From an uncultured Candidatus Saccharibacteria bacterium (GTDB lineage: Bacteria; Patescibacteriota; Minisyncoccia; Phycocordibacterales; Zambryskibacteraceae): a stretch of 64,000 bases of DNA. The stretch lies in assembly GCA_964446535.1 (NCBI GenBank), contig CAYUOR010000001.1, forward strand, positions 71,283 through 135,282, in the 5' to 3' direction. The notes beneath the pieces are model-generated. The model made no database searches and was not told the origin of the DNA. It was given only the letters and a program-made list of their open reading frames with translations. Positions 15,892-59,498 of the stretch are shown piece after piece. Position 1 is the first letter of the stretch, and each line of letters starts with the position of its first letter. The position numbers and the translations under genes were made by a program.

Positions 15892-15922
15892 ATTATAAAA
15901 GACCAGCACCGAGGTGCTGGTC
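15891..15922 (-). terminator. Rho-independent terminator hairpin for the minus-strand gene 15932..16459 (may also stop plus-strand PCD transcript)
   Basis: 9-bp stem gaccagcac/gtgctggtc with 4-nt loop; U-tract on minus strand (plus aattataaaa). Confidence 0.55.
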
Positions 15923-15931
15923 TGTGGATAG

Positions 15932-16459
15932 TCAGTACTGGCTGACTTTGCGTCGCGGCTCGCGAGCGGGCATGAAATGCCCTTGCGGCCGAGTGATACG
16001 CTGCGCCCTTTGGGCTGGTATGGAACGCCGGTAGCGCTCCTTGTGGTCGCGGTAACTGTGATAGTCACCGTCGTGGTCGAGAGTGAATCCGAGAGCGAGC
16101 TCTCGTGCGACCCTCTCGAGAATCACCTGACGGGCCACTGCTTCCCTGCAGATGGCAACACACGATTCCGTCGAGAACTCGAAAGCCCACGAAGGAACCA
16201 GGCCGTCTTCTTTTTGTAACTGAACAAATGCTGACCCGCTGACACAATCCGTGTCGAAGAGGGCCACCATCCCCGCAACAGGCTCCATCAGCCGTGCATC
16301 CTCGATGGACTTCAGCACACAAGCACGATGGCTCATGCTCTTCAGTGCCAGAATCACTTCGCGGCTTCTGGGATTTTGAATCCCGTTGCCACCGTGAAGT
16401 GTGAGGAAGACGAGCTGTTCACGGACTTTTCCGTCCGCTGGATAGGTTTTTGTATCCAC
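15932..16459 (-). CDS. Hypothetical protein (first gene of high-GC island)
   Basis: 175-aa ORF in the ~55% GC segment; own terminator; no motif recognised with confidence (a 'DCVSGS' Cys motif weakly recalls NlpC/P60-type hydrolases). Confidence 0.35.
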   Translation of the reverse strand: MDTKTYPADGKVREQLVFLTLHGGNGIQNPRSREVILALKSMSHRACVLKSIEDARLMEPVAGMVALFDTDCVSGSAFVQLQKEDGLVPSWAFEFSTESCVAICREAVARQVILERVARELALGFTLDHDGDYHSYRDHKERYRRSIPAQRAQRITRPQGHFMPAREPRRKVSQY

Positions 16460-16556
16460 CTGTTACCCCTTAAGGACGTTGAGAAAGGACAACATAGTCC
16501 CACAAAATAGTCTACCGAAAACCTCTGAAATGTCAAGGTGGGTTTAGGGGTACCCC

Positions 16557-16585
16557 TTGCATTTTTAAAAGCTTTATTGTATAAT
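16557..16585 (+). promoter_or_regulatory. Sigma70-type promoter, near-consensus, with extended -10
   Basis: TTGCAT, 17-nt spacer, TGnTATAAT; GAGGAG Shine-Dalgarno 8 nt before ATG 16653. Confidence 0.6.
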
Positions 16586-16652
16586 CCCGCCTAGACTTTG
16601 GTACTTAGTACCTTTCAATTACTTCAAAGCGCTCAAGCGCGAGGAGATTCAA

Positions 16653-17732
16653 ATGTTTTTCGTGATTGGGTTAATTCTTGCGACAGCAATCGCCCTCGGT
16701 CTCGTGGTTGCCCTGCGGCGCTTTGCCGCAAGGGAGAACCCGACCATCATAACCTTCCCACCAGCCCAAAGACACGCTCTGGTGACAACCAAGAGTGTCT
16801 CGCCGGAGAAGGTCAAGAGCAATGACAAGACGGAGGAGCAGGGTAACGTCGTTGACGTCGTTCATGCGATTCCGGGCAAGTGGCTCGACAAGTCAGGAGA
16901 CGATCCGTGGAACTGGTGCTACAAAGACGAGGACGAAGAACATAAGGAACCGCGAGGTCTCCTCTATGTTCTCTTCGGCATTGCCTTTATCGGCTTCTTC
17001 CGATACCTGCGCCTCAATGAGGTGAGAACCTTCCGTTGGGGCAGGAAGGAAGAAGAGACGGAGTATCACATGCTCTCCAAGAGTTCGCTGACGCGCTTCC
17101 CGTTCTTTTCGGGACAGCACGACATCAGACTCAAGGGCATTGAGACCAAGCAAATCCTCAAGGTTGATCTTCTCTTGAACATCATCTTTGAGGAAACGTA
17201 CCCTGTCAGGGTGCGTCTCCGTACGGCCGATCCTTACGCCGTCTTGACTATGATGGTCTCCAAGCTCACCATCAGTCTCATCGGCGGACACGATGCCAAG
17301 GATATTGTTCAGAAGAAAGAGCTCCAGGATGACCTCGCGCGTGACATTGAGAATGCTGTCAAGAAGAGCGTCGTCGAAGAGCTTGGCATCACCATCAAAA
17401 AGGTGACGCTCGCCGAAATCGATTTCGAAGAGGAAACCAAAAAACTCCTCGAACTCGAAGCCAAAACCGACCTTGAGAACAGGGCGCGGCTCGCCCTGGC
17501 GGATAACTATAAAGAAACAGAGATCAGAAAGGCCGAAGGCGACAGGCAGGCGCGTATCCTTCGCAATGAAGGAGATGCGCACCGAGTGGAACACGTCATC
17601 AAGCCAGTTGTTGGCCTTGGTGAACTTGGCGTTCAGGTGCGCCAGGCCGAAGCGTATGAGACCAACAAGACCATGACGACTCTCGTCGTCGGTCAGGGTG
17701 CGACCCCGGTCGTTCCCGTTGGAGCGAAGTAA
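16653..17732 (+). CDS. SPFH/band-7 (stomatin/prohibitin/flotillin-like) domain membrane protein with N-terminal extension
   Basis: two N-terminal TM segments; 'VRVRLRTADPYAVL', 'VEELGITIKKVTLAEIDFEEET' and 'AEGDRQARILRNEGDA' match the SPFH core and its C-terminal charged helix. Confidence 0.55.
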   Translation: MFFVIGLILATAIALGLVVALRRFAARENPTIITFPPAQRHALVTTKSVSPEKVKSNDKTEEQGNVVDVVHAIPGKWLDKSGDDPWNWCYKDEDEEHKEPRGLLYVLFGIAFIGFFRYLRLNEVRTFRWGRKEEETEYHMLSKSSLTRFPFFSGQHDIRLKGIETKQILKVDLLLNIIFEETYPVRVRLRTADPYAVLTMMVSKLTISLIGGHDAKDIVQKKELQDDLARDIENAVKKSVVEELGITIKKVTLAEIDFEEETKKLLELEAKTDLENRARLALADNYKETEIRKAEGDRQARILRNEGDAHRVEHVIKPVVGLGELGVQVRQAEAYETNKTMTTLVVGQGATPVVPVGAK

Positions 17733-17738
17733 TCATTG

Positions 17739-17772
17739 AGAGCCGAGTAGCAATACTCGGCTCTTTTTTATT
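17739..17772 (+). terminator. Rho-independent terminator after SPFH gene
   Basis: stem gagccgagta / tactcggctc, loop gcaa, followed by tttttt. Confidence 0.65.
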
Positions 17773-17775
17773 AAG

Positions 17776-17805
17776 TTGACAAATGCTAAGTTATTGTGAT
17801 ATAAT
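17776..17805 (+). promoter_or_regulatory. Sigma70-type consensus promoter
   Basis: TTGACA, 18-nt spacer, TGaTATAAT; GAGGTGA Shine-Dalgarno before ATG 17841. Confidence 0.6.
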
Positions 17806-17840
17806 TAGAGCAGATTGAACTTTAACACGTGAGGTGATTT

Positions 17841-18878
17841 ATGAGTGGGTTCTGGACTAAATTTGGTGGTGTTGCAGACCAGCTGGATGCACTCGCTGGT
17901 CGAGTCATCCTCAAGGTCTGGAATCGGATCAGGCCGAGAATCTGGGCAATCACAGGGATGAAGGTGCTTTTTTCACTTTTCATCCTCTTTGCCTGGTGGC
18001 TCGGAAAGATGGCTGAGAAGGCGGCATCATCCGTCGGCTCAATCCCCTCTTACGCATGGTGGTGGATCGTCGGTATTCCTACTGCGATTGTCGTTATCGT
18101 TCTTCTCTGGAAGAACAGGTCCACAGTGCTCACACCGCTCGGACAAGTGAGGGCGAAATTTAGTTTCGCGCGGGTTCTCGGGGTTCTGGCGATTGTCGGT
18201 GTCGTCACACTCATCGTCTTCAATGACGAGATCAAGGGTGCGGCTAGAGGATACCTCCAAGACAAGGAAATCGGCGGTCTGCCGATTCTTGCTAGGGGTA
18301 AGCCCGCTTCACCCGAGGCGACTCTCGCGATCATCGCCGAGTGCGAGTCGGGGGGTAGACACTGGAACGACGACGGCTCTGTCGTTACGAATAAAAACAA
18401 AGACGGCAGTATCGACATCGGTCGCTGGCAGATTAACTCTCAGCACTGGGAGAGAGCGAAGTCCATGGGTCATGATGTATCAACCGAGGAGGGCAATGAG
18501 GCATTCGCCAAGGTGCTCTTCAACAAGTACGGTACAGATCCGTGGAACTCGTCTCGAGAGTGCTGGGGAGACAAGATCTACGCACACTACGCAAAGAGCT
18601 TCTCGGGCGAGACCGTCGCGACTGGCACTATTCGTGTCGGACGAGACTGGTCTAGTTGGGTCTCTGTTCCTCCAGGGCAGGAACTCTTCTTTCAACGAAT
18701 GGATGATACCGTTTCGTTCGAAATTGAGATTCAGGACGGAGATCGTTTCGAGTTCAAGCCGAATTTCCCTGGACACAAGAGGTTCGCGCTGATCCAGAGG
18801 GCCAGGTTCCGAGTCACGGATGAGAAGGCTGAAGAACTTTCTATCTGGCTTAGATTCTCGCCGTATGAAATCACTTAA
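17841..18878 (+). CDS. Multi-pass membrane protein with Rpf/transglycosylase-like (lysozyme-fold) domain
   Basis: four predicted N-terminal TM helices, then 'ATLAIIAECESGGRHWNDDG...DIGRWQINSQHW...YGTDPWNSSRECW'. This matches the 'IAQCESGGNW...G.LQF' core of resuscitation-promoting factor / transglycosylase-like domains. Confidence 0.55.
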   Translation: MSGFWTKFGGVADQLDALAGRVILKVWNRIRPRIWAITGMKVLFSLFILFAWWLGKMAEKAASSVGSIPSYAWWWIVGIPTAIVVIVLLWKNRSTVLTPLGQVRAKFSFARVLGVLAIVGVVTLIVFNDEIKGAARGYLQDKEIGGLPILARGKPASPEATLAIIAECESGGRHWNDDGSVVTNKNKDGSIDIGRWQINSQHWERAKSMGHDVSTEEGNEAFAKVLFNKYGTDPWNSSRECWGDKIYAHYAKSFSGETVATGTIRVGRDWSSWVSVPPGQELFFQRMDDTVSFEIEIQDGDRFEFKPNFPGHKRFALIQRARFRVTDEKAEELSIWLRFSPYEIT

Positions 18879-18885
18879 CGCAAAA

Positions 18886-18914
18886 GCCCCGACAATGATG
18901 TCGGGGCTTTTTTT
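18886..18914 (+). terminator. Rho-independent terminator, possibly bidirectional
   Basis: stem gccccgaca / tgtcggggc, loop atga, then 7 T; lies between convergent genes. Confidence 0.65.
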
Positions 18915-18930: not shown

Positions 18931-19194
18931 TTAGTTGAAGGGATACCCGGGAGTTACTCCAAGGGTTCCAAGAATCAGACGAATCAGACCATAGGCGGAA
19001 ATCATGATGAACATCCCGAAGAGTCCCCAGAAAATCTTCCTCTTCCCCGTCGCTCGTTCGTCATCTGCGGTTTGACTACCGATAAACTGTATTATCCCTG
19101 CAAGAAAGATAACGAAAGCTATGGCGAAGATAAGAATTATCAGGGGGTTCAGTATGTATTGACTGATAGCCCCGAGAAATCCAGAGATATCCAC
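18931..19194 (-). CDS. Small two-TM membrane protein, VirB2/TrbC-like (T4SS pilin-like) paralog 1
   Basis: 87 aa; TM1, charged loop 'SQTADDERATGKRK', TM2 'IFWGLFGMFIMISAYGL'; same architecture as downstream paralogs; no signal peptide. Confidence 0.35.
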   Translation of the reverse strand: MDISGFLGAISQYILNPLIILIFAIAFVIFLAGIIQFIGSQTADDERATGKRKIFWGLFGMFIMISAYGLIRLILGTLGVTPGYPFN

Positions 19195-19210
19195 TTTGGT
19201 CTAATTTAAC

Positions 19211-19561
19211 TTAGTTCAAAGGTACACCAGGAACGGCTTGAAGATCTTCACCCTGGTTGATGCCAAGAGCATTGCCGATAAACTCGACCAAGCCCCAAAC
19301 AGAAACCATAACGAAGAGGGCGATGAGACCCCAGAGCATGATCTTCTTCGCATCGGCCTTAGCTTCTTCATTGCCTTGGGCAAAGATGAATTTGACCAAG
19401 CCCCAGAAGAAGACCAGGAGGGCGATCGCAACGACGATCGGTAACAGGGTGTTTACCAGGTCACCAATGTTCGTGACGAAGGTGTCGATGTTACCCAGAG
19501 TCTGAGCTCCGACAAAAGCCGGAAGAGCAAGAAGCGATCCCAGAATTAATGCTTTTTTCAT
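19211..19561 (-). CDS. VirB2/TrbC-like small membrane protein paralog 2
   Basis: 116 aa; signal peptide 'MKKALILGSLLALPAFVGAQ'; 'LLVFFWGLVKFIFAQGNEEAKADAKKIMLWGLIALFVMVSVWGLV' two-helix core. Confidence 0.45.
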   Translation of the reverse strand: MKKALILGSLLALPAFVGAQTLGNIDTFVTNIGDLVNTLLPIVVAIALLVFFWGLVKFIFAQGNEEAKADAKKIMLWGLIALFVMVSVWGLVEFIGNALGINQGEDLQAVPGVPLN

Positions 19562-19697
19562 TTATTTAACTTATAGGCTTTGGCTAGTAATCTAGCCGTT
19601 ATTTCTAATATACCTAAGCGGTACTACCCCATAATATCCTTTGTCTGTAACTACCGCAATCAAGTTATCCACGCCTCTTTTTCAAGGGTTTTTGGGA

Positions 19698-20093
19698 TTA
19701 CGGTATTGGACTCCAGGGTGGCTGTGGTCCTGGGCCTCCAGGCGGTAGAGCTCCGCCACTACCAGGAGGAGTGGCTCCGGGAGTCGGCGAGGGTCCTGGA
19801 AGAAACGCGTCTTCAAGAAAGGCGACGATACCCCAGACCGAGACCATAACGAAAAGAGCTATAAGACCCCAGATCATAAGCTTTTTGCCGGCCTCAACTG
19901 CCTTCTCGTCGCCCCCGACTCGAAAGATAAACTTAGCGAGTCCCCAGAAAAAAACTAGAAGCCCTATAGCCACGAGTACTCCTATTGTCGGATTTATAAG
20001 ATCGCCAAAACTCTGAAGAAGACCGCTAATCCCCGCTTGGGCGAAGGCGGTAGACGGCGCGAGTATTAAAAAAAGTAATAAGTAATTATTCAT
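19698..20093 (-). CDS. VirB2/TrbC-like small membrane protein paralog 3 with Pro/Gly-rich tail
   Basis: start taken at the internal ATG giving 'MNNYLLLFLILAPSTAFAQ' signal peptide; core 'LLVFFWGLAKFIFRVGGDEKAVEAGKKLMIWGLIALFVMVSVWGIV' nearly identical to paralog 2; C-terminal 'PGPSPTPGATPPGSGG'. Confidence 0.45.
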   Translation of the reverse strand: MNNYLLLFLILAPSTAFAQAGISGLLQSFGDLINPTIGVLVAIGLLVFFWGLAKFIFRVGGDEKAVEAGKKLMIWGLIALFVMVSVWGIVAFLEDAFLPGPSPTPGATPPGSGGALPPGGPGPQPPWSPIP

Positions 20094-20104
20094 TCCTAGA
20101 AACA

Positions 20105-20398
20105 TCACTCCGGTAAAAGTGGTAAGCCAAAAGAATTGGAAAACCCTAAATCGTCGTGGAAGAGAGCAAGGATACCCCAGACCGAGACCATTATAAAAAG
20201 AGCTACGAGACCCCATTTCATAAGGTTCTTGCCATCGGCTATGGCCTTATCGCTATCTCCCCCTATACGAAAGATAAACTTAACGAGCCCCCAGATAAAA
20301 ACAAGAAGCGCTAAGGCATAAAGAATAGGCACAAGAATCTGGATAATGTCCAGAAAAACTTCCGTCAGCTCTTGAAAGGTTGTTGGAGCAGGCTGCAT
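20105..20398 (-). CDS. VirB2/TrbC-like small membrane protein paralog 4
   Basis: 97 aa; 'LLVFIWGLVKFIFRIGGDSDKAIADGKNLMKWGLVALFIMVSVWGIL'. Confidence 0.4.
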   Translation of the reverse strand: MQPAPTTFQELTEVFLDIIQILVPILYALALLVFIWGLVKFIFRIGGDSDKAIADGKNLMKWGLVALFIMVSVWGILALFHDDLGFSNSFGLPLLPE

Positions 20399-20401
20399 TT
20401 T

Positions 20402-20794
20402 TTATATAGGGCAAGCGGGGCCACCAAGGGCGGCAATCGTTCTGCAGACAACATTTGCTATGACCCAGGCGCCGAGGAGTACAGCCGTACCGATTGATGT
20501 ATAGAGAAGTGCTCTGTGGGCTTCTTTGAGCTTAGTTTCATTACCCTGCGCCGTGACATAGAGAAACCCAGAGAATATAAAAGCAAGGACGGCAATTACT
20601 CCACCTATCGGCAAGACCACGTCGTTAATAATAGTTCTGATAAGACCAAAGAGAGAATCCTGCGTGCCGAATGGATTGTTTAGAGTAACACTTATGGACG
20701 GGTTACCTCCGCTCCCTTGAGCGAGGACTAGGTCAAAAGATATGACGAAAAAAAGAAGTAGGGGTGTAAGTATTATAAGTAATTTTTTCATCAT
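20402..20794 (-). CDS. VirB2/TrbC-like small membrane protein paralog 5
   Basis: 130 aa; signal peptide, 'VIAVLAFIFSGFLYVTAQGNETKLKEAHRALLYTSIGTAVLLGAWVI'. The hydrophobic-GG(N/K)E-basic loop-hydrophobic pattern is typical of T4SS pilin-like families. Confidence 0.5.
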   Translation of the reverse strand: MMKKLLIILTPLLLFFVISFDLVLAQGSGGNPSISVTLNNPFGTQDSLFGLIRTIINDVVLPIGGVIAVLAFIFSGFLYVTAQGNETKLKEAHRALLYTSIGTAVLLGAWVIANVVCRTIAALGGPACPI

Positions 20795-21159
20795 TATTGT
20801 GACAGAAGAGAAAATCCTGGCGCCAGAAGACTAGTAATAGTGTAAACGATAAGCCAGGCCGCGAGTATCCACAGGTAGCCGATGAAGACCTTTCTGAAAA
20901 TTTCTTTGGCCCTGGTTTTCTGTGCCTCCTTACCGCCAGAAGTCATAAGAAGAAAGCCGGCGTAGATAAAGGCGATGACCGCGAGAAATGAGGAGAGAAG
21001 GACCAGGGTTCTTATAACATTTTGAGCAAGTTCTATCAGGTGGCCAAAGGTACACGGGTCGGCGGCACTACCGTCACAAACAATCAAATCGAAACCTTGA
21101 GCCGAAGCTGAATTAGCAAACATAAGAACTAGAGCGACGACGAAAGAAAAATACTTCAT
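20794..21159 (-). CDS. VirB2/TrbC-like small membrane protein paralog 6
   Basis: 121 aa; signal peptide 'MKYFSFVVALVLMFANSASAQ', 'LAVIAFIYAGFLLMTSGGKEAQKTRAKEIFRKVFIGYLWILAAWLIV'. Confidence 0.5.
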   Translation of the reverse strand: MKYFSFVVALVLMFANSASAQGFDLIVCDGSAADPCTFGHLIELAQNVIRTLVLLSSFLAVIAFIYAGFLLMTSGGKEAQKTRAKEIFRKVFIGYLWILAAWLIVYTITSLLAPGFSLLSQ

Positions 21160-22442
21160 CTCTGTTTGATTATTGCATCAAGGTCCCGGTTCATCTTCCC
21201 TACCGCCTCTTGAACTCTCGCCCTGCCGCTCGTGACCGATTCTATAGCCTCGCGAAAGACTGTCTCAGTTTGCTTATCCGACGGATCAAGCCAACCCCGA
21301 GACTGTAGAGCAGAGTCGTAGAAAACGGAAAGTACGGCGTCGGTCGGTTTTCTCGCCAAGAGATCACGCCTGGTCGGCGGCAGAAACAGTGCGTCGGAGA
21401 GTTGCTTTTCGGAGCTTGCCGAAGTTAGCTTCCTGGCAACCTCAAGTGCAATAGCTGGATTCCTGGTACCGCGCGCCACGGCAATGCCGCGTAGATTGCC
21501 GAAGGTGGTCACTCTTGTTGAAACTCTGGATTGCGGCACAGGGGCAACGCCGAAGTTTAAATTTGGACTTTTATTTTTTAGAATTCGGTACTCGGAAGCA
21601 AAGCCAAGGTAGTAAGCAGAATCACCGCTCGTGAAGTGTGTTTGTGCGTCTATTAGAGAGCGGTTCCAGCTGTAGAAAATCTTGGTTGGATTTGAAAACT
21701 GGGTGTAGAACTCAAGGGCCGCCTCACCAGGCACAACCGGCAAGTTGAAGCTTTCTGATATCTGGGCCCTAAGATCGTTCTCGATAATTCTGGTTATCGG
21801 AGTGCCAGCCTGAAGCATGAGAAGGGAAAGGATATCTTTGGCGTGCGGAATGTTTCTAGACTCGCCGAGCGCCATAACGGAAGATATTAGATTTCCTGCA
21901 ATATCTTTTTTCGACATATCGGCGGCAGAGGCATAAATTTCGTCCCAATATCCGATCGGATTGGCCCGACCCGCGGCAGAGAGCATATCTCTGTTGTAGT
22001 AGAGAACCATGGGGTCGATTAGGAGCGGTATGGCGTAGATACCGTTCCTATCCAGAAAGAGTTCCCCTTCTTCAATAAAAGTATTTTTAAAGTCGCGCTC
22101 ACTGTAGGCCTCATAGGGAATGACTAGAAGCTTCGGTTTATTTTCAAGAAACCTATCTTGGGTAAGGATAATAAGGTCTGGCCCAGCGTCTCGAGCAAGG
22201 GCCTCGGTAAATTCAGTATCAATCGAAGAGGCAGAAATTTCCCTATAAATCACACTAAAAGCCTTATTGCTTGAAAACTCTGGAGTGCTTAGAAGCTGGT
22301 TGAAATCGAAAGACGGGATGTCGCCCCAGATGGTAACCCTAGTATCACCGCCGGAGGCGCCGCGGTATGAGGAGAAAACTATTACCGCAACGACGATAAA
22401 GGCGCCGAAGACCACCATGAGTATTATTTGAAACTTCGACAT
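21156..22442 (-). CDS. Membrane-anchored extracellular solute-binding protein, family 1 (MalE-like), orphan
   Basis: N-terminal TM; 'DAGPDLIILTQDRFLEN' and 'YAIPLLIDPMVLYYNRDML' align to MalE 'DGPDIIFWAHDRFGGY' and 'IAYPIAVEALSLIYNKDLL'; no permease or ATPase nearby; stop overlaps start of pilin-like paralog 6. Confidence 0.55.
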   Translation of the reverse strand: MSKFQIILMVVFGAFIVVAVIVFSSYRGASGGDTRVTIWGDIPSFDFNQLLSTPEFSSNKAFSVIYREISASSIDTEFTEALARDAGPDLIILTQDRFLENKPKLLVIPYEAYSERDFKNTFIEEGELFLDRNGIYAIPLLIDPMVLYYNRDMLSAAGRANPIGYWDEIYASAADMSKKDIAGNLISSVMALGESRNIPHAKDILSLLMLQAGTPITRIIENDLRAQISESFNLPVVPGEAALEFYTQFSNPTKIFYSWNRSLIDAQTHFTSGDSAYYLGFASEYRILKNKSPNLNFGVAPVPQSRVSTRVTTFGNLRGIAVARGTRNPAIALEVARKLTSASSEKQLSDALFLPPTRRDLLARKPTDAVLSVFYDSALQSRGWLDPSDKQTETVFREAIESVTSGRARVQEAVGKMNRDLDAIIKQR

Positions 22443-33805: not shown

Positions 33806-34879
33806 ATGAAAATTTTAGCAATAGAGACAAGTTGTGACGAAACCGCAGTCACGCTCTTGGATATAGACGGCCCTCTTGAAAAACCCAATATAAAAGTACT
33901 CGGCGACTCTTACCTTTCTCAAGCTAAGTTGCATGAAAAATATGGTGGCGTCTATCCAAACCTCGCCAAACGAGAACACGAAAAAAACCTACCAATTCTT
34001 CTTGAGAAAACGCTCAAAGAGTCTGGAGAAAGTTCAGAAAATCCAAATATAGATTATATTGCCGTAACGGAAGGGCCGGGCCTAGAGCCGGCACTCTGGA
34101 CTGGTATTACTTTCGCACTGGATCTCGCTAAGAGGTGGCAGAAGCCGATAATTCCCGTAAATCACATGGAGGGTCATGTTTTTTCTGTTCTTTTTAATGC
34201 TCGTGCTTCCTTAGAGCTTCCGGCATTGGCACTTCTCGTCTCCGGCGGCCATACGGAACTTGTCCTGGTGAAAGATTTCAGGAATTACGAAATTATAGGA
34301 AAAACCAGAGATGATGCTGTCGGTGAATCGTTCGACAAGGTGGCACGCATGCTCGGACTTCCCTATCCCGGCGGACCCGAGATCTCCAGACTTGCCGAGG
34401 AATCACGAATTGAAAAAGAAAGGGTCGAAATAGAGTTTCCGAGACCGATGATTCATTCCGACAATCTCGATTTTTCATTCTCAGGATTAAAAACTGCAGT
34501 GCTTTATAAATTGAAAACGAAAAAGAGTATTAGTGAAGAGTTTAAAAAAGAAGTAGCTCGCGCCTTTGAGGATGCGGCAGTAGCAGTTTTAATAGAGAAA
34601 ACGAATAAGGCGCTTTTGGAGCTTGGAGATATAAAAACTTTAATTGTCGCTGGAGGAGTGTCGGCCAATATTCATCTAAACCGCGAACTTGCCGGTTTGG
34701 TCTCTAAGTTTAAACATGTCAAACTCTACGCCCCCACAAGGTATCTATCAACCGACAACGCGGTAATGATCGGAATAGCGGCTTTTATCCGTGCCAGGAA
34801 GGAATCAGAGATTTTGAAGAAACAAGTATCAATAAGGGCGCGCGGTAATCTTTCTATTTCTTCGGCCCCATTACTATAA
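33806..34879 (+). CDS. tsaD: tRNA N6-adenosine threonylcarbamoyltransferase TsaD
   Basis: 'MKILAIETSCDETAV', 'VSGGHTELV', 'VAGGVSAN' Kae1/TsaD signatures. Confidence 0.85.
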   Translation: MKILAIETSCDETAVTLLDIDGPLEKPNIKVLGDSYLSQAKLHEKYGGVYPNLAKREHEKNLPILLEKTLKESGESSENPNIDYIAVTEGPGLEPALWTGITFALDLAKRWQKPIIPVNHMEGHVFSVLFNARASLELPALALLVSGGHTELVLVKDFRNYEIIGKTRDDAVGESFDKVARMLGLPYPGGPEISRLAEESRIEKERVEIEFPRPMIHSDNLDFSFSGLKTAVLYKLKTKKSISEEFKKEVARAFEDAAVAVLIEKTNKALLELGDIKTLIVAGGVSANIHLNRELAGLVSKFKHVKLYAPTRYLSTDNAVMIGIAAFIRARKESEILKKQVSIRARGNLSISSAPLL

Positions 34880-37800
34880 CTTTGTCGATAGGTGGTTTGG
34901 TGTCTGCATCTTTCTTTGCGGTAAGTATTTCTTTAACTGGCTCTTTGGTAATCTCGGTTGGTTTGGTTATATTCTTACCAATTGATTTAGCGCGAGCGAG
35001 CACTACCAGATACCAAGATTTTACAGAAGCTCTAATCGAGTTATGTTCCGGGTAAAGCGAGGTCCAAGTAAGAGATAAAGCTAAGAGGATAAATAGCGGT
35101 AAGACAAACCACCACTTGAAAACAAGTGAGGCGACTATACCGAGAACCAAACCCAGATCAACCACGACCCACTTGGTGATAAACCTTTTTCTAAGATTTC
35201 CCGGTGTATTTTTATAAAAGACATCTTTAAGGACATTTCCCAGAACGTAAAGGGCAATTACAAAAACCAATAGGCCATAAATTGATTTAGCGATATCACC
35301 CATACTTTCTGGATTAGCAACTATCGCCGTGGCTAATCCCCTAACAACCCCCAGACTTCCATTAGTGGTGTCGGAAGATTGAACTCCGACAACTGGAATT
35401 ATAGGAGTGGTTGTTGAGCCCGACGAATCAGCATCATTTTCAGTTTGTATATAAGAAGGAATTGGTTCAATACCCTGGGCTCTTAGGTTGTCTAAAAGAG
35501 CTTTAAAGGCCGCAATTTCATAAATCTGTGCTTCGTTCAGAGGAAATAGGCGCTGGCAGTATATTTCGTTTATTTTCTTCAGAGTAAGAATATAGACATA
35601 GCCTGTCGGGTCGGTGTGTCCCCATGGCTCCAGAATATCCTCGGCGTACTTGAGCTGGAAGAGCGAGACCGCCTCAAGGGTTGCGTCGTCAAAGACCCCG
35701 GTAAGCGAGACACCTTCGCGCATATCAAAATTTATCAGAAATGCCTGGAGCTTCAATACTTCCTGCGGATTATTGTTTAAATCTCTCCTCATATAATCTC
35801 TAAGGTAGAAACAGACATTAGGATCAGCTGGAACGGTTGTGGCACCAAGAACTTGTCCATCGTCTTCCGTATTGTCGGACGGCACGTAAGAATTCGGATT
35901 TGAGGCGTCTCCGTCAGAGTGACAACCCGGGTCAAGCGCATCTATTAGACCATCACCGTCATCATCTCTAGAATTTGAGCAGGGTGCATTTCCGCCGCCA
36001 CCTCCGCCGCCGCCGTTTGTCGTATCGTATTTGCATGGTAGAGCTTCGCCCCAGTTGCTCGCCTTATTATCTTCGCAAAGATTTGAACCACCCGGAACGT
36101 TGGTTTCGTCGTTATCGTTCGGATCGTATGAGTCGGGATTGTCGGCATTACCATCGCTGTGGCATCCTGGATCATCGGCATCGACAAAACCATCCTCATC
36201 GTTATCTATCGCATCTGAACAGATTGGAGACGGTGAGACACAGTCACCGTTCTGAGAAACAAGTCCCTGCGGCACCATTATCTGAATGCCGTCTAGGTTA
36301 GCACAAACATCTGTCGGATTTGTTTCATCACTGTCATTCGGGTCGTATGAATCGGGATTATTAGAATCCGCATCGGTATGACAACCAGGATCCGCGCTAT
36401 CTGCGACACCGTCATTATCATTATCAAACGTGTCAGAACATACGGCCCTAACCTGAACCGTGAGCGTCTGCTGGGTAGCTTTTGCACCGTGGCTATCTGT
36501 TGCGTCATAAGTAACAACATAATCTCCAACCGTATTGGTAAGGACAGTGTCTCCGCCGACAACAAGATTCGGCTCCGGATCGTCCTCGTCATCGTTTACC
36601 GTGGCATGACCGAGCGGATCAAAACTTCCACCCAAAGTAACGATTACCAGAGTATCTGCGGTAATAACCGGAGGCGTATTTTCATCGTCATCTTCTTCGT
36701 TAGTACATCCTGGATCATCCGGGAAGTCGATAAGGTTGTCGCCGTCATTGTCCATCCCGTCTGAGCATTCTGACGGTGGCGCGCTTACTTTTACCGTTCG
36801 GGTCTTTTCTGTTGCGGAGAGTCCGTCCGAATCAACTACGTTGTAGGTTATGACATAAGTACCGGTATTTGAAGTGTCAACCGTGTCGCCGGAAATCACG
36901 ACATCCCCCGTCAGATCGCCATCTTCCAGGTCTGTGGCGACAAACCCTGGATCAGCGTAAGGTTCAGAGCTTACAAGAATATTATGAGGATTCGGCCCGT
37001 CGATAGTTATGACTGGCGCCTGGTTTTCATGATTAATAAAGGTGCAAGAAACAATGTCATTTGAATCAATGGAAAGATCCGTGACACTAAGACCCTCTCG
37101 AGTACCCGAAGGAGAACCGTTTACGAGACACTTCGCGTCCAAAAGTTTGAAATTATTTTGCAAAACTTCTGTGACACTATAGACACCCTGATCAACCTCA
37201 AGAGAGGGCGTGAAACCGTCTGCCCCAGTGGTTTTTGAAACTGTCTGGGAGTTTTTTATCTCAAAGGTCCAACCTGCGGCAGGAAGTTGGTCGTCTGTTG
37301 TCGTTAGATCGTTATCGGAATCTAGAATCTTCTTTACAGTGATCGTACCACCGCAAAGTTCCTGTGCCAAATCAGCCAAATCATCAGCTAAAGTATCAAA
37401 GCCGGAAGTATAAACCGCATCAGAACTTGATATCGCTTTAAGGTTATTTACTTTAAGGTTGTCTCCGATACCTAGCGCGATGATGCGAGTACCTGAACCC
37501 TTAATTTCATTTGCCTTCGTTATAGCAAGCTTTAACGCCTCCGTTGAATCAGTCGGTCTGTTTGGATTTCCGTCAGAAGCAAATACAATGAGATTCGGAT
37601 GTTCGTCTCCTGTTCGAGGATCAAATGTGCCGAAAGCCTTACCAAGGCCGTCTGCCCAGTTCGTATTTCCGCCTGAGACTGGGGTATTTATCGCTATATG
37701 GATAAGTCCGAGGTTATTGGTAAAACTTTGAAGAACCTGACCATTAGTATCAAAATCAGTTACTGAAAAGAGCGTATCTGTGCCGGGTAAAAATGAGTCA

Positions 37801-38072
37801 ACAAAGCCGTTGAAGGCGCTTTTCATCTGATTTAGCTCACTTGTACTTATGCTTCCGGAGCTATCTAAAACAAGAGCTATATCAAAGCCACACGATGCCT
37901 TTAATTCTGGGTTCGGAGCTGGGGTTGGATTACTGCTTCCCGTAGCCAGAGTCATGGCGGGAGTAAATATAAATAGCAGAGAGATTATAAAGGCGCTGGC
38001 CGTGGCAGGATTTAGATTAGGTTGTTCTCGTTTAGCTTTATTGTTCATAGTCCATAAATTACGTTTCCACAC
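34854..38072 (-). CDS. Large surface protein: signal/TM, VWA domain, Ig-like domain, tandem acidic Cys-containing Ca-binding-type repeats, PG_binding_1 domain, C-terminal multi-TM anchor
   Basis: 1072 aa; VWA MIDAS 'DIALVLDSSGSIS ... IVFASDGNPN' (aa ~62-235); Ig-like 'ITIDGPNPHNILVSSEPYADPGFVATDLEDGDLTGDV' (aa ~352-432); four 'CSDxxDNDxDGxxDxxDPGCHxDxDxxNPDSYDPND' repeats plus poly-Gly (aa ~435-740); 'RDYMRRDLNNNPQEVLKLQAFLINFDMREGVSLTGVFDDATLEAVSLFQ' PG_binding_1; several TM helices aa ~930-1005. Confidence 0.6.
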   Translation of the reverse strand: MWKRNLWTMNNKAKREQPNLNPATASAFIISLLFIFTPAMTLATGSSNPTPAPNPELKASCGFDIALVLDSSGSISTSELNQMKSAFNGFVDSFLPGTDTLFSVTDFDTNGQVLQSFTNNLGLIHIAINTPVSGGNTNWADGLGKAFGTFDPRTGDEHPNLIVFASDGNPNRPTDSTEALKLAITKANEIKGSGTRIIALGIGDNLKVNNLKAISSSDAVYTSGFDTLADDLADLAQELCGGTITVKKILDSDNDLTTTDDQLPAAGWTFEIKNSQTVSKTTGADGFTPSLEVDQGVYSVTEVLQNNFKLLDAKCLVNGSPSGTREGLSVTDLSIDSNDIVSCTFINHENQAPVITIDGPNPHNILVSSEPYADPGFVATDLEDGDLTGDVVISGDTVDTSNTGTYVITYNVVDSDGLSATEKTRTVKVSAPPSECSDGMDNDGDNLIDFPDDPGCTNEEDDDENTPPVITADTLVIVTLGGSFDPLGHATVNDDEDDPEPNLVVGGDTVLTNTVGDYVVTYDATDSHGAKATQQTLTVQVRAVCSDTFDNDNDGVADSADPGCHTDADSNNPDSYDPNDSDETNPTDVCANLDGIQIMVPQGLVSQNGDCVSPSPICSDAIDNDEDGFVDADDPGCHSDGNADNPDSYDPNDNDETNVPGGSNLCEDNKASNWGEALPCKYDTTNGGGGGGGGNAPCSNSRDDDGDGLIDALDPGCHSDGDASNPNSYVPSDNTEDDGQVLGATTVPADPNVCFYLRDYMRRDLNNNPQEVLKLQAFLINFDMREGVSLTGVFDDATLEAVSLFQLKYAEDILEPWGHTDPTGYVYILTLKKINEIYCQRLFPLNEAQIYEIAAFKALLDNLRAQGIEPIPSYIQTENDADSSGSTTTPIIPVVGVQSSDTTNGSLGVVRGLATAIVANPESMGDIAKSIYGLLVFVIALYVLGNVLKDVFYKNTPGNLRKRFITKWVVVDLGLVLGIVASLVFKWWFVLPLFILLALSLTWTSLYPEHNSIRASVKSWYLVVLARAKSIGKNITKPTEITKEPVKEILTAKKDADTKPPIDKVIVMGPKK
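35852..36770. repeat. Intragenic tandem repeats encoding 4 copies of a ~40-75 aa acidic Cys-containing module
   Basis: recurring gaYccgaaYgaYaaYgaYga-type DNA segments; near-identical copies at about 36305-36440 and 36090-36220. Confidence 0.55.
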
Positions 38073-49101: not shown

Positions 49102-52100
49102 CTACTGACCTGTTGAGTAAGCCGATCTCGACTTCGGTCCGAAGTAACCGCTTGAAGGCAAGATTGCCTTAGCTCTCTGCCACCTGATTACGGCGGACTG
49201 AGTTGCGGGACCGAAATAAGTACTCTCATTCCCTACCGAGCCAAGACCGGAGGACGAAACGGTAAAGCCCTGGGAGTTAAGATACTTCTGGAGACAGCGC
49301 ACATCCTCACCGGATGAACCGAGAGTTAGGTCTCTAGTAAAGGAACACGTTCCTGAAGGCAGGCCGGCCCCCTGAGAGATGAGAAAATTTATGAGGGTCT
49401 GAAGCTCTAAGATTTTGGCTGTGAGGATTGAGATCTGCTGGGCTTCAGGGAGCGAGTTGAAGTTTGAAGGTAAAACACCAATAGATGACGGGATAGAAAC
49501 TGGGCTACCGCCTCCACCACCGCCACGTCCTCCACCGCCCGAAGAGACTGGCGGATCTTGAGGCGTTGGAATCGGCGTTGGCGGGTTAATAGATTCTGGG
49601 GCGGTGAAGCTTACCGTGGCCGGATCAGAATAGTTTTCCTGATCGTCGTAGACAAAGAGTGAGTAGTAATAGACTGTTCCGGGAGTAACAGAAGTATCGG
49701 TAAAGCTAGAGCCAGTGACTCGAGCTACTTCAAAATTCGCATCGTATTGATTGAGGTAGCCGGTGGTGGAGCGCAAGATTGCCACACCAGAGTAGCCTGT
49801 GAAAGATATTGGACTCCAGTTTAGGATGATAGAGCCAGGTGAGGCTGTGACTAGGTTGATTCTTGGTGGCCGACTTCTTACGGTGAAGGTGGTGTTATTG
49901 GAAAGCCCAGTAAGGTTGTTGGCGACTGATCTTGCTCTGGCATTGTAGCTACCAGAATTAAAGCCAGAAACAACAACCTCATGAGAAGTTCTTAAGATGG
50001 TGCTCACAGCCGACTGGGTCCCATAAGCAGTGGTTGCGCCGTATTCAACTTGAGATGTTGCCGGTCTATCCGTGTTCCACCTGAATCTTGCTTCTCCTTG
50101 TCTAACTTGAACCGAGAAATTTGAAACAGTCGGCGCTGCAGTAATCGGCGGTGCGGACGCCACCGTGACAGAGGTACTTGTATTAGAATTTCCCCCACTT
50201 CCCGTGCAGGTAAGGGTGTATGTGGTGTTTGCGGTTGGTGTTACCGACTGCGTTCCGCTTGTGCTCTTCGTACCACTCCAGCCGTTTGATGCTGTGCAAC
50301 TCGTGGCATTTGTTGAACTCCAGGTGAGAGTGCTTGAATTGCCAGAAGTGACTGACGTCGGGTTAGCCGAAAGAGAAACGGTTGGGGCGGGGGTTGGTGA
50401 TGGTGGCGGAGGCGAGGTCTGACCGCCAGAATTGTTGTATGTTGGTAAGGCTGATTCAGAGGTCGCCATGGCGAAATCATCCATATACATCCATGTGTCC
50501 CTATTACGATAGAGACGGCTGTCCACGAACTCGCCCCAGGTTGTGGGCATTCTAAGAATTCTGTGTCCTCTAGACACCTGCTCAGGTGGTAGTATCCAAT
50601 TAAAGTTCGGTGTAACACCGTGGATCCATTCGGCAACCTTAACCCAATCCTGTCCGAGTGGTCGTATCCACGCCTCATACTTCCCTGTGCCGTCAGAGGT
50701 GTCCATATGGAGCTTAACAAGTTGCCAGCGGTTCGGGGTAATAAATTCATTTCTATTTTGCTGATACAGTTTCCATTGATCCCAATCGGGTTCGGTCAAT
50801 ATATCCGCGCCAGTACCAAGATTTTTCATAAAGGCGCTACCAGTATCGTAACTTTCAGGAGCAGGATTATCTAAGACAAAGAGCCAGTTGTGGTATTGGC
50901 CGGTACCCGGGCACGGATAAGACCTATTGCACGGATAGATAAATTTGCCACCAGTAAAACCGCTATTCTGAAATTGATTCTTGTTAATGTATACCCAGAA
51001 CTGGAACCAAACGTTGCTAGGAATATAGTTTTCAAATTCCGTACCATCTCCTCCCATCTGAAGATAGAAATCAGTTTGGCCATTCAGGGTTGCTGATAAG
51101 CCTTCTATTGCGAGAGCGCGCGAACCGCCACTTGGAAATGGGCTAGTTGTTCCGGGAATATTTGTAACGGTGTATAGGTAACCACCAGCACCTCCAGGCC
51201 TTGTTGTTTCGTCTTTAAGTCCGGTCCAACCAGCTGATGTAAAAGCGGAAGCTTTCGTCGCTCCAGAATCAAATTTTCCTACTGGATACTCAAAGTTATC
51301 AAATAAGAGGAGACCTGATGGTGTTGGTGCGGGCGGTGTTGGTGCGGGCGGTGTTGGTGCGGGCGGTGTTGGTGTCGGCACGGTCGTCACCGTAATAGAA
51401 GTATTAGCGCTGGCACTCCCTCCACTTCCCGTGCAGGTAAGGATGTATGTGGTGTTGGTGGTGGGCGTTACCGACTGCGTTCCGCTTGTGCTCTTCGTGC
51501 CGCTCCAGCCGTTTGATGCTGTGCAACTCGTGGCGTTCGTTGAACTCCAGGTGAGGGTGCTTGAACCGCCTTGAGTAATTGAAGTTGGATTGGCCGAAAG
51601 AGAGACGGTTGGGGCTGGTGTCGGCGATGGAGGTGGTGGCGGTGCTGGGTCGGTATAGGGGTTGAGGAAGTCATCTGCAACCCAGCCGTCAAAAGAGGTA
51701 TCAAAGTTAATTCCCCACCACCAGTAATTTGTGCCAGAGAGAGATGCGTAAGTGGGTCCGCCGGTAACAGTACCAGTCGCACCAGAGGGTTGTGTACCGA
51801 GCGAGGTACCGGCTGCTGTTGAGCGGACATTCACCGTTGCGTTCGTCTGAATACGACTACCAGTAGTAAAGCGCGTTGGCGGCACAATTTGTGTTGGCGG
51901 AGGAGGTGGAGGTAGTGGCGTAGAGCCGTATGTCGGCAGGGCTGATTCTGAAGTCGCCATGGCGAAATCGTCCATGTAGAGCCAAGCATCGTAGTTCGTA
52001 TTATCAGAGAAGTTGGCTGTGCCCCAAGTGGATGGCATTCTCAAAACTCTATGCCCGCCCTCAGAACCACTGGGAATGTCCCAGACGAAGCCGGGTGTAA

Positions 52101-59486: not shown

Positions 59487-59498
59487 TCTGTGTGAAAA

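What the first reader, a model, noticed from the sequence alone, without database searches (positions are those of the whole stretch)
17841..18878. Multi-TM protein with an Rpf/transglycosylase-like lysozyme domain next to the pilin-like array
'AECESGG(R)HW...DGSIDIGRWQINSQHW...W..C' reproduces the catalytic-Glu core of the actinobacterial resuscitation-promoting-factor / transglycosylase-like fold. Here it is fused to four N-terminal TM helices and a ~120-aa C-terminal extension. The gene has a perfect-consensus promoter and a strong terminator. A membrane-tethered muralytic enzyme beside a pilus-like gene set is the VirB1 logic of T4SS and T4P loci. In an episymbiotic CPR it could equally act on host peptidoglycan.
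Basis: partly seen in the sequence, partly recalled or inferred. Interest (0 to 1): 0.7.

Follow-up and report, generated by a model that had tools for sequence, protein, structure and literature searches.

The report
Membrane-anchored lysozyme beside VirB2-like pilin array
This gene encodes a membrane-tethered cell-wall-cutting enzyme of the lysozyme superfamily that, in one clade of ultra-small Patescibacteria, always sits next to an array of secretion-pilus subunit genes; it is a plausible but unproven "wall opener" for that pilus and otherwise a fairly ordinary kind of enzyme.

Summary
The ORF (17841-18878, +, 345 aa), its motif, its consensus promoter and its terminator are all real. There are three N-terminal TM helices, not four, and the C-terminal extension is about 100 aa, not 120.

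The nearest relatives are small single-domain proteins, more than 5,000 clusters, mostly unannotated. Many lie on phage contigs and some in Patescibacteria chromosomes.

The long form (TM helices + domain + β-sandwich) is a single clade. In all 22 distinct loci with sequence downstream, it faces a convergent array of TrbC/VirB2-type T4SS_pilin genes. An SPFH gene lies upstream wherever a homologue could be detected.

That adjacency sits inside a vertically inherited housekeeping block, and the window holds no VirB4, VirB6 or T4CP. The VirB1-like role is therefore plausible (~0.4) but not shown.

Verdict: new member of a known kind, moderate interest.

The parts
16653..17732 (+). Upstream SPFH/Band-7 (stomatin/prohibitin/QmcA-like) membrane-scaffold gene, a conserved left-hand neighbour
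   Evidence: Pfam Band_7 E=1.4e-4. A six-sequence profile hits QmcA at E=4.4e-6 and also prohibitin and stomatin. Homologues lie directly upstream of the lysozyme gene in L001, L002, L029, L030, L037, L051 and L054, weakly in L013, and about 1.9 kb upstream in L042.
17738..17765 (+). Intrinsic-terminator hairpin ending the SPFH transcription unit
   Evidence: 12-bp stem followed by a T-run. A hairpin with a different sequence occupies the same position in L001, L009 and L030.
17776..17805 (+). Consensus sigma-70 promoter TTGACA-18-TG-TATAAT
   Evidence: 12/12 match. It is unique in the window, with 0.03 expected by chance. Both hexamers are invariant in L001, L009 and L030.
17831..17836 (+). 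Shine-Dalgarno GAGGTG, 4 nt before the ATG
   Evidence: Read directly from the sequence. 'GAGGTGATTTATG' is invariant in four genomes.
17841..18878 (+). CDS, 345 aa: three TM helices, lysozyme-like domain, C-terminal beta-sandwich
17940..17996 (+). TM helix 1 (residues 34-52), preceded by a basic stretch KVWNRIRPR on the predicted cytoplasmic side
   Evidence: Kyte-Doolittle peak 1.86; AF2 helix 9-65.
18054..18110 (+). TM helix 2 (residues 72-90), opening with the conserved IPxx(F/Y)WWW motif
   Evidence: Kyte-Doolittle peak 2.09; motif conserved in alignment A1.
18165..18221 (+). TM helix 3 (residues 109-127); an odd helix count with N-terminus inside places the catalytic domain outside the cytoplasm
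   Evidence: Kyte-Doolittle peak 2.57. The topology is inferred from the positive-inside rule.
18309..18575 (+). Minimal lysozyme-like catalytic domain (residues ~157-245)
18345..18347 (+). Codon of Glu169, the predicted general-acid catalyst in the 'CES' motif
   Evidence: Invariant in 76/76 family members. It aligns with EtgA E42, HEWL E35 and RpfB E292.
18414..18416 (+). Codon of Asp192 on the beta-hairpin, equivalent to HEWL D52 and EtgA D60
   Evidence: Asp in 72/76 members. Alignments. The functional importance of EtgA D60 is reported in PMC10880428.
18615..18875 (+). C-terminal beta-rich domain (residues ~259-345), a small jelly-roll/cupin-like sandwich that varies between lineages
   Evidence: Mean pLDDT per 10-residue block mostly 75-92, with dips to 68 and 54, and six strands. 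Foldseek gives weak cupin, GOLD and double-stranded beta-helix matches at E about 1e-3. At least four sequence types of 85-100 aa occur among homologues.
18882..18911 (+). Strong intrinsic terminator between the convergent lysozyme gene and the last pilin gene
   Evidence: 13-bp stem, 7 G-C pairs, T7 tail.
18931..21159 (-). Six tandem TrbC/VirB2-type T4SS_pilin paralogues, convergent with the lysozyme gene
   Evidence: PF18895 E=1.2e-5 to 8e-13; two also hit TrbC PF04956. All 22 distinct long-form loci with downstream sequence carry such an array; the complete arrays hold 6-8 copies.
21156..22442 (-). TM-anchored solute-binding-protein gene whose stop overlaps the start of the first pilin gene (same operon)
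   Evidence: SBP_bac_8 E=1.2e-14. It is conserved upstream of the array in relatives.

Best explanation
The gene encodes an integral-membrane peptidoglycan glycosidase.

Architecture: three N-terminal TM helices (N-terminus in, C-terminus out) hold a ~90-residue minimal lysozyme-like domain and a ~90-residue beta-sandwich on the outer face of the cytoplasmic membrane.

Active site: Glu169, at the end of the first domain helix, is the general acid. The beta-hairpin supplies Asn186, Asp192, Gln197 and Asn199, the same constellation as HEWL N46/D52/Q57/N59 and EtgA N54/D60/Q65/N67. A Cys168-Cys241 disulfide probably staples the domain, as in Rpf and EtgA. The enzyme should therefore cleave the MurNAc-GlcNAc backbone of peptidoglycan. 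Whether it does so hydrolytically or as a lytic transglycosylase is open, as it is for EtgA.

Expression and reach: it is transcribed on its own from a conserved consensus promoter. Because it is tethered by three helices, it can only reach the cell's own wall close to the membrane.

Most likely role (inferred, about 0.4): a VirB1/EtgA-type 'specialised' wall opener. It would make local gaps for the envelope structure built from the adjacent TrbC/VirB2-like pilin array, possibly organised by the upstream SPFH scaffold.

Shown: the fold, conservation and equivalence of the catalytic residues, the promoter, and the invariant gene neighbourhood. Inferred: topology, disulfide, substrate, and the link to the pilins.

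For: Sequence. The 76-sequence profile hits EtgA at E=3.3e-7 with CES aligned to NES(E42) and D192 to D60. hhalign to HEWL gives 93.5% probability, E=2.4e-7. E169 and S170 are invariant; D192 72/76, Q197 70/76, N199 70/76. The roles of the EtgA residues are described in PMC10880428. In NCBIfam, 24/76 relatives hit IagB and 3 hit TrbN. The Cys pair co-varies: 61/76 have both, and all 4 sequences lacking C168 also lack C241.

Topology. Three hydrophobic helices, with basic residues before TM1 and between TM2 and TM3.

Expression. The promoter and ribosome-binding site are unique in the window and conserved.

Context. The neighbours are T4SS_pilin genes. Twenty-five distinct long-form loci (window included) were found. 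All 22 that have downstream sequence carry the convergent pilin array, starting 48-123 nt beyond the stop in 21 and overlapping the gene end in L040. Among about 60 short-form loci, only one (L066) has a pilin-like neighbour. The long forms are essentially one clade. A survey of Patescibacteria T4SS found 441 VirB2 arrays, noted that most VirB2-bearing genomes lack a detectable VirB1, and suggested that other glycosidases may fill that role (PMC12102498).
Against: The lysozyme gene and the pilin array are convergent and separately transcribed, so they are not co-regulated by operon structure.

The adjacency is embedded in a long block of conserved housekeeping synteny (holB, FKBP, LOG, orf175, SPFH, LYS, pilins, SBP, gyrA) shared by all long-form loci. 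Conserved neighbourhood may therefore reflect vertical inheritance rather than functional coupling.

No VirB4, VirB6, T4CP or other T4SS machinery was found among the large ORFs of the 64 kb window.

No biochemical data exist for any family member. Single-sequence matches to every curated family are below threshold.

The 'upper' active-site motif of EtgA and SLT enzymes (Y116, N117, G119) has no counterpart, because the domain ends earlier.
Confidence: 0.5

Rival explanations
1. It is a general housekeeping autolysin. In this reading a membrane-bound glycosidase remodels the cell's own sacculus for growth or division, as Mlt-type enzymes do, and its position next to the pilin array is only inherited gene order.
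For: The gene has its own strong, conserved, constitutive-looking promoter. It lies in a block of housekeeping genes whose order is conserved across the whole clade. The window holds no T4SS machinery. Short-form relatives also sit in ordinary chromosomal contexts in Adlerbacteria, Giovannonibacteria and genomes labelled Saccharibacteria.
Against: The long-form architecture is rare: 12 clusters among 5.8 billion proteins, essentially one clade. That is unusual for a core wall-growth enzyme. It was never found without the pilin array where sequence was available. Its nearest named relatives are secretion-system-specialised enzymes, IagB/EtgA and TrbN.
Confidence: 0.3
2. It is an offensive enzyme that digests the peptidoglycan of the host bacterium at the episymbiotic contact site. 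The fast-evolving C-terminal beta-sandwich would recognise the host wall.
For: The C-terminal domain varies strongly between lineages, as do the adjacent pilins. Cultivated Patescibacteria are episymbionts, and lysozyme homologues near virB4 are essential for epibiotic growth in one of them (PMC12102498).
Against: Three TM helices and only a ~30-residue linker tether the domain to the producer's own membrane, beneath its own wall. No conserved signal-peptidase site after TM3 is evident in homologues. The C-terminal domain has no significant match to any known wall-binding module.
Confidence: 0.1
3. It is an Rpf-type resuscitation or growth-stimulating muralytic factor acquired from Actinobacteria.
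Against: PF06737 scores 13-18 bits against a cut-off of 27, and only 10/76 relatives touch it. The NCBIfam Rpf model is hit by 1/76. hhalign probability is only 31%. The hairpin carries the HEWL/EtgA Asp and QIN motif instead of Rpf's GG(V/L)QF. All close relatives come from Patescibacteria or phage contigs, none from Actinobacteria.
Confidence: 0.03
4. It is a prophage-borne or phage-remnant endolysin whose function is host-cell lysis.
For: Most short-form relatives examined on long contigs lie among terminase, ERF, Rad52 and HNH genes. Fourteen lie on IMG/VR viral contigs. The long-form clade is nested among such sequences in a neighbour-joining tree.
Against: The window gene has no phage genes around it. 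It lies in a housekeeping block that is syntenic in more than 20 loci. It has extra TM helices and a C-terminal domain that the phage forms lack, and a conserved sigma-70 promoter. At most, a phage-related origin is possible.
Confidence: 0.03

Closest known systems
EtgA / IagB / IpgF: T3SS-specialised peptidoglycan glycosidases (PDB 4XP8, 8URN; NCBIfam NF011856)
   Different: EtgA is a soluble periplasmic protein of diderms that is activated by the T3SS rod protein. This protein is anchored by three TM helices in a monoderm-type Patescibacterium and carries a C-terminal beta-sandwich. [quoted passage not shown] It scores 20-23 bits against the NF011856 cut-off of 208. Its neighbours are T4SS-type pilins, not a T3SS.
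VirB1 / TrbN / monoderm VirB1-like hydrolases (TraG of pIP501, PrgK of pCF10)
   Same: The functional logic matches: a muralytic enzyme of the lysozyme/SLT superfamily encoded beside VirB2-type pilin genes. PrgK and TraG are also membrane-anchored at the N-terminus. Three of 76 relatives hit TrbN weakly.
   Different: The SLT domain PF01464 is not reached (11.6-14.7 bits against 21.3). There is no CHAP or second hydrolase domain. The gene is not inside a virB4-containing operon, and no T4SS ATPase or channel genes lie in the window. It is convergent with the pilins, not co-transcribed.
C-type (GH22) lysozyme, e.g. hen egg-white lysozyme
   Different: The domain is about 90 residues against about 129. 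It has one Cys pair instead of four disulfides. The Pfam Lys model is hit by only 7/76 relatives. Its origin is bacterial or phage, and it is membrane-anchored.
Rpf (resuscitation-promoting factor) domain, Pfam PF06737
   Different: The match is below the Pfam threshold. The hairpin is of C-type lysozyme style with a catalytic Asp, which RpfB lacks. Taxonomic distribution differs. hhalign probability is 31%.
Pfam PF18896 SLT_3 'lysozyme-like domain'
   Same: It is the Pfam model hit most often by family members: 36/76, best E=8.8e-9, and 10/12 of the long forms. The three most distant homologues are pre-annotated with it.
   Different: The window protein scores 15-19 bits against a cut-off of 27, and most relatives carry no Pfam annotation at all. 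The family is at best an uncovered outlier of SLT_3.

Membership tests
Lysozyme-like superfamily (fold level) | Alpha+beta lysozyme fold: a helix ending in the catalytic Glu, then a beta-hairpin, then a helical lobe | tested here: met
Lysozyme-like superfamily (fold level) | Catalytic Glu positionally equivalent to HEWL E35, Slt70 E478 and EtgA E42 | tested here: met
   E169 is invariant in 76/76 members. It aligns with EtgA E42, HEWL E35 and RpfB E292. The equivalence is by alignment only; no coordinate superposition could be inspected.
Rpf / Transglycosylas (PF06737) | Score at or above the Pfam gathering threshold (27 bits) | tested here: not met
   13.4 bits for the full-length protein and 17.8 bits for the domain alone.
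Rpf / Transglycosylas (PF06737) | CE(S/A)GG motif with the catalytic Glu, plus a conserved Cys pair | tested here: met
   CESGG is present. C168 and C241 co-vary.
Rpf / Transglycosylas (PF06737) | Rpf-type hairpin (GNGxYGGxQF, without a second acidic catalytic residue) | tested here: not met
   The hairpin reads NKDGSIDIGRWQINS, with D192 aligned to HEWL D52 and EtgA D60. The RpfB sequence has no Asp at that position.
EtgA/IagB-type specialised glycosidases (NF011856) | Active-site residues E42, N54, D60, Q65 and N67 | tested here: met
   E169, N186, D192, Q197 and N199 align with them. The residue list comes from PMC10880428.
EtgA/IagB-type specialised glycosidases (NF011856) | [quoted passage not shown] | tested here: not met
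   The domain ends at about residue 245 after three helices. The profile alignment to EtgA covers only the first part (profile positions 49-107), and no AYNxG-like motif is visible in the sequence.
EtgA/IagB-type specialised glycosidases (NF011856) | NCBIfam equivalog cut-off (208 bits) | tested here: not met
   20-23 bits.
VirB1-like T4SS hydrolase | SLT (PF01464) or CHAP hydrolase domain recognised above threshold | tested here: not met
   SLT scores 11.6-14.7 bits against 21.3; there is no CHAP domain.
VirB1-like T4SS hydrolase | Encoded within or next to a T4SS gene cluster (virB4, virB6, T4CP) | tested here: inconclusive
   The gene is adjacent to six VirB2-type pilin genes. No VirB4-, VirB6- or T4CP-like ORF is present in the 64 kb window. 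The rest of the genome could not be fetched.
VirB1-like T4SS hydrolase | Required for pilus or T4SS assembly | not testable with these tools
   This needs genetics, imaging or biochemistry.
Pfam SLT_3 (PF18896) | Score at or above the gathering threshold (27 bits) | tested here: not met
   15.3 and 19.3 bits. However, 36/76 relatives match at E<0.1, with a best E of 8.8e-9.
Phage (SAR-type) endolysin | Located in a phage or prophage lysis module | tested here: not met
   The window gene is flanked by SPFH, LOG, pterin-4a dehydratase, an SBP and gyrA, and this block is syntenic in more than 20 loci. Short-form relatives, by contrast, are on phage contigs.

The most novel reading that the evidence does not exclude
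In one Patescibacteria clade, three neighbouring elements form a self-contained envelope module that works away from any virB4 cluster: the SPFH scaffold, this triple-TM lysozyme and the variable VirB2-like pilin array. In this reading the lysozyme is the long-sought 'missing VirB1' that opens the wall for pilin export. Its fast-evolving C-terminal beta-sandwich would dock either on the equally fast-evolving pilins or on the host surface. The catalytic domain would have been recruited from a large, unannotated phage endolysin family.
Probability: 0.15. Interest if true: 0.7.

Novelty: new member of a known kind. Interest (0 to 1): 0.4.

Why it matters
Patescibacteria carry hundreds of VirB2-like pilin arrays, some of them essential for epibiotic growth. 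Most of these genomes show no recognisable VirB1-type wall-opening enzyme (PMC12102498).

This protein is invisible to curated HMM thresholds, yet it has a confident lysozyme fold with a complete EtgA/HEWL-type catalytic set. In its clade it is always the immediate neighbour of the array. That makes it a concrete, testable candidate for the missing wall opener.

The work also exposes a large lysozyme-like family that current domain databases leave almost unannotated: more than 5,000 clusters at 50% identity, mostly small, many of them on phage contigs.

If the pilin link is only inherited gene order, what remains is an ordinary membrane-bound autolysin.

Tried and rejected
1. Foldseek of the full-length model against the PDB was dominated by the TM helices and the C-terminal beta-domain (GGCX, cupins, GOLD). 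It said nothing about the lysozyme domain. I re-modelled the domain alone.

2. A weak galectin-2 match to residues 232-328 (E about 0.08) was not reproduced by Foldseek, which gave generic cupin and jelly-roll folds. I treat the domain as an unspecified beta-sandwich.

3. I considered that the TM region plus the C-terminal beta-domain might be an NfeD-like partner of the upstream SPFH protein. No NfeD hit appeared in 12 homologues even at E up to 1, and no NfeD structure appeared among the fold hits. Rejected for lack of support.

4. Weak N-terminal hits (the CD3337/EF1877 mobilome membrane protein at E=0.18; DUF4131 at E=0.024) are regarded as noise from TM composition.

5. The search for related loci with the 76-sequence alignment failed because no stretch was conserved enough. 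I repeated it with the 11-sequence alignment.

6. The exact window protein is not on record in the look-up of encoding contigs, so the source genome could not be examined beyond the window.

7. PHROGs gave nothing for the window protein and only weak endolysin or transglycosylase hits for two relatives.

8. A literature search for PF18896/SLT_3 returned nothing relevant.

9. I looked for loci where the lysozyme-pilin pair persists in a different genomic context. None was found. Only L013 differs, and only on the upstream side.
Full report
**1. The observation**

An ORF of 345 codons runs from 17841 to 18878 on the + strand. Its translation contains the quoted strings: IIAECESGGRHW, KDGSIDIGRWQINSQHW and PWNSSRECW.

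The promoter is TTGACA, 18 nt, TATAAT with a TG extension, at 17776-17805. It is the only perfect match in the 64 kb window, with 0.03 expected from shuffles. Both hexamers and the GAGGTGATTTATG ribosome-binding region are invariant in three other genomes (L001, L009, L030). The L001 protein is only about 30% identical to the window protein.

A 13-bp G+C-rich hairpin with a T7 tail follows the stop codon. A second hairpin at 17738-17765 ends the upstream gene.

Hydropathy shows three TM segments, not four, at residues 34-52, 72-90 and 109-127. Basic residues lie before TM1 and between TM2 and TM3. This predicts an N-in, C-out topology with the catalytic part outside the cytoplasm (inference).

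The region after the lysozyme-like domain is about 100 residues, not about 120.

**2. What the domain is**

As a single sequence, the protein reaches no curated threshold. Pfam gives SLT_3 E=0.029, Transglycosylas (Rpf) E=0.13 and SLT E=0.2. NCBIfam gives IagB E=3e-4. PDB sequence matches are to C-type lysozymes at E about 0.08.

Only 12 full-length homologues exist among 5.8 billion clustered proteins. All are unannotated, and the few that carry a source name are labelled Patescibacteria, Minisyncoccia or just 'bacterium'.

A profile of the domain finds 66 further proteins, nearly all 110-190 aa. An exhaustive HMM search finds 5,356 clusters at E up to 1e-3, and 560 at E up to 1e-30.

The 76-sequence profile hits EtgA, the T3SS-associated peptidoglycan glycosidase, at E=3.3e-7. 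By hhalign it matches hen lysozyme at 93.5% probability (E=2.4e-7).

Member-by-member scans point the same way. In Pfam, SLT_3 is hit by 36/76, SLT by 17, Rpf by 10 and C-type lysozyme by 7. In NCBIfam, IagB is hit by 24/76, TrbN by 3 and Rpf by 1.

AlphaFold2 models the domain at pLDDT 93.8. In the full-length model the same region scores 95-98.

**3. Catalytic residues**

E169 and S170 are invariant in all 76 sequences. D192 is kept in 72, Q197 in 70, N199 in 70, C168 in 72 and W235 in 72.

| Window residue | EtgA | HEWL | RpfB |
|---|---|---|---|
| E169 | E42 | E35 | E292 |
| N186 | N54 | N46 | - |
| D192 | D60 | D52 | no Asp |
| Q197 | Q65 | Q57 | - |
| N199 | N67 | N59 | - |

The equivalences come from the alignments. 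The EtgA literature describes exactly these residues as a muramidase/lytic-transglycosylase 'hybrid' site, with D60 functionally important (PMC10880428). RpfB has no Asp at the hairpin position.

The upper-site Y116/N117/G119 motif of EtgA and SLT enzymes is absent here, because the domain is truncated to about 90 residues, the size of an Rpf domain.

C168 and C241 co-vary: 61/76 sequences have both, and all four that lack C168 also lack C241. This suggests a disulfide and is consistent with an extracytoplasmic location.

In summary, this is a minimal domain of Rpf size with an EtgA/C-type-lysozyme active site. It is not a member of PF06737.

**4. The other two parts of the protein**

The TM region is conserved among the closer homologues, with an IPxx(F/Y)WWW motif at the start of TM2.

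The C-terminal ~90 residues form a six-stranded beta-domain with mean pLDDT per 10-residue block mostly 75-92, dipping to 68 and 54. It has only generic cupin, jelly-roll and GOLD resemblances at E about 1e-3. Across homologues it comes in at least four sequence types of similar length, so it evolves fast. Its function is unknown. A binding module is the obvious guess, but that is inference.

**5. Genomic context**

The six small genes on the minus strand (18931-21159) are TrbC/VirB2-type T4SS pilins, Pfam PF18895. They are not type IV pilus pilins. They form one operon with a TM-anchored solute-binding protein gene (21156-22442) downstream of gyrA.

The upstream gene (16653-17732) encodes an SPFH/stomatin-type scaffold. 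Its profile hits QmcA at E=4.4e-6.

I built local HMMs for the lysozyme domain and for the pilins and ran them over 105 fetched loci from genomes, IMG/VR and metagenomes. The long form (TM helices + domain + C-terminal extension) occurs in 25 distinct loci, counting the window. All 22 that have sequence downstream carry the convergent pilin array. The array starts 48-123 nt beyond the stop in 21 of them and overlaps the gene end in L040; complete arrays hold 6-8 copies. Among about 60 short-form loci, only one (L066) has a pilin-like neighbour.

In a neighbour-joining tree the long forms make up essentially one clade, nested among short forms from Patescibacteria chromosomes and phage contigs (resolution is low).

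All long-form loci also share a wider housekeeping synteny: holB, FKBP, LOG, orf175, SPFH, LYS, then the convergent pilins, SBP and gyrA. Only L013 differs, and only upstream. The invariant adjacency therefore cannot be separated from vertical inheritance.

No VirB4-, VirB6- or T4CP-like gene is in the window. The large ORFs are VWA/Ig, Big_7+PG_binding_1, LamG/DUF2341, TPR and MurJ proteins.

**6. The short-form relatives**

Four of the five short-form genes examined on long contigs lie among terminase, GpA_ATPase, ERF, Rad52, HNH or Peptidase_M23 genes. Fourteen more are on IMG/VR viral contigs. Others are chromosomal in Adlerbacteria, Giovannonibacteria and genomes labelled Saccharibacteria.

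Many carry a single N-terminal hydrophobic segment, which is reminiscent of signal-anchor endolysins. PHROGs barely recognises them.

An actinobacterial origin is not indicated. A phage-related origin of the catalytic domain is possible.

**7. Mechanism and rival explanations**

The best-supported explanation is a membrane-tethered, outward-facing peptidoglycan glycosidase that is constitutively and independently expressed and acts on the producer's own wall near the membrane.

For its biological role I rank the possibilities as follows.

- A VirB1/EtgA-like specialised wall opener for the neighbouring VirB2-like pilin system: about 0.4.
- A general autolysin: about 0.3.
- An enzyme attacking host peptidoglycan: about 0.1.
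- An Rpf-like factor: about 0.03.
- A phage lysis enzyme: about 0.03.

The first ranking rests on two things: the enzyme's nearest named relatives are secretion-system enzymes, and the neighbourhood is invariant. A published survey found that most VirB2-bearing Patescibacteria lack a detectable VirB1 and suggested that other glycosidases may substitute (PMC12102498). That gives the hypothesis a place in the literature, but it is not evidence for this gene.

**8. Novelty and score**

The enzyme class, the fold and the idea of apparatus-associated muralytic enzymes are all well known. Three things are new:

- a lineage-specific architecture (three TM helices, a minimal EtgA/HEWL-like domain, a variable beta-sandwich);
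- its fixed pairing with a pilin array and an SPFH gene;
- the recognition of a large family that is essentially unannotated.

I classify it as a new member of a known kind, with interest 0.4.

Noticed in passing
L004, L005, L006, L008 and L014-L027 (short-form genes, e.g. L005:8001-8501): Small (100-200 aa) proteins carry the same lysozyme-like domain, often behind a single N-terminal hydrophobic anchor. They lie on phage-like contigs with terminase, ERF, Rad52, HNH or Peptidase_M23 genes. This looks like a large SAR-endolysin-like family (over 5,000 clusters at 50% identity) that Pfam and PHROGs barely annotate.
   Followed up: partly
window 18931-22442 (- strand): The six T4SS_pilin paralogues form one operon with a TM-anchored SBP_bac_8 solute-binding protein; the SBP stop overlaps the start of the first pilin gene. 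The operon lies directly downstream of gyrA. Complete arrays in related genomes hold 6-8 copies. The functional meaning of the SBP-pilin pairing is unknown.
   Followed up: partly
window 19698-20216 (-): The third pilin paralogue has a Pro/Gly-rich C-terminal tail (PGPSPTPGATPPGSGGALPPGGPGPQPPWSPIP). Its longest ORF overlaps the next pilin gene, so its true start is probably an internal Met before a signal-peptide-like segment.
   Followed up: no
window 15900-18900: A ~3 kb block holding orf175, the SPFH gene and the lysozyme gene has 50-56% G+C, against 46% for the window as a whole. That explains the many spurious long ORFs on both strands here. The three genes are conserved across the clade, so any transfer would be ancient.
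   Followed up: partly
window 15932-16459 (-): A 175-aa ORF with no Pfam hit on record for its homologues (not scanned here) has homologues at the same position in L001, L002, L009, L030, L037 and L054. It is a clade-specific gene of unknown function between the pterin-4a dehydratase and SPFH genes.
   Followed up: partly
L013:7932-10498: In the most divergent long-form locus, the stop of the SPFH-like gene overlaps the start of the lysozyme gene, which looks like an operon. In the window, L001, L009 and L030, a terminator hairpin and the conserved consensus promoter separate the two genes. This hints at a functional link between the SPFH scaffold and the lysozyme.
   Followed up: partly
window 63019-63873 (-), 49102-55161 (-), 56883-62042 (-), 34854-38072 (-): The window holds a cluster of large surface proteins. 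One is a 284-aa protein with a Peptidase_S74 domain (endosialidase-chaperone, phage tail-spike type). One is a 2019-aa Big_7 protein ending in PG_binding_1. Two are paralogous ~850-aa LamG/DUF2341 proteins. One is a 1072-aa VWA + Ig-like protein.
   Followed up: no
L066:6815-7707: This is the only short-form locus with a pilin-like neighbour. The short lysozyme-like gene is followed 84 nt later by a T4SS_pilin-like gene on the same strand, outside the long-form clade's synteny. It may be an independent instance of the pairing.
   Followed up: no
window 18882-18911: The terminator hairpin between the convergent lysozyme and pilin genes is flanked by an A-tract on one side and a T-tract on the other. 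It may terminate both transcription units, although the minus-strand U-tract is only 4 nt long.
   Followed up: no
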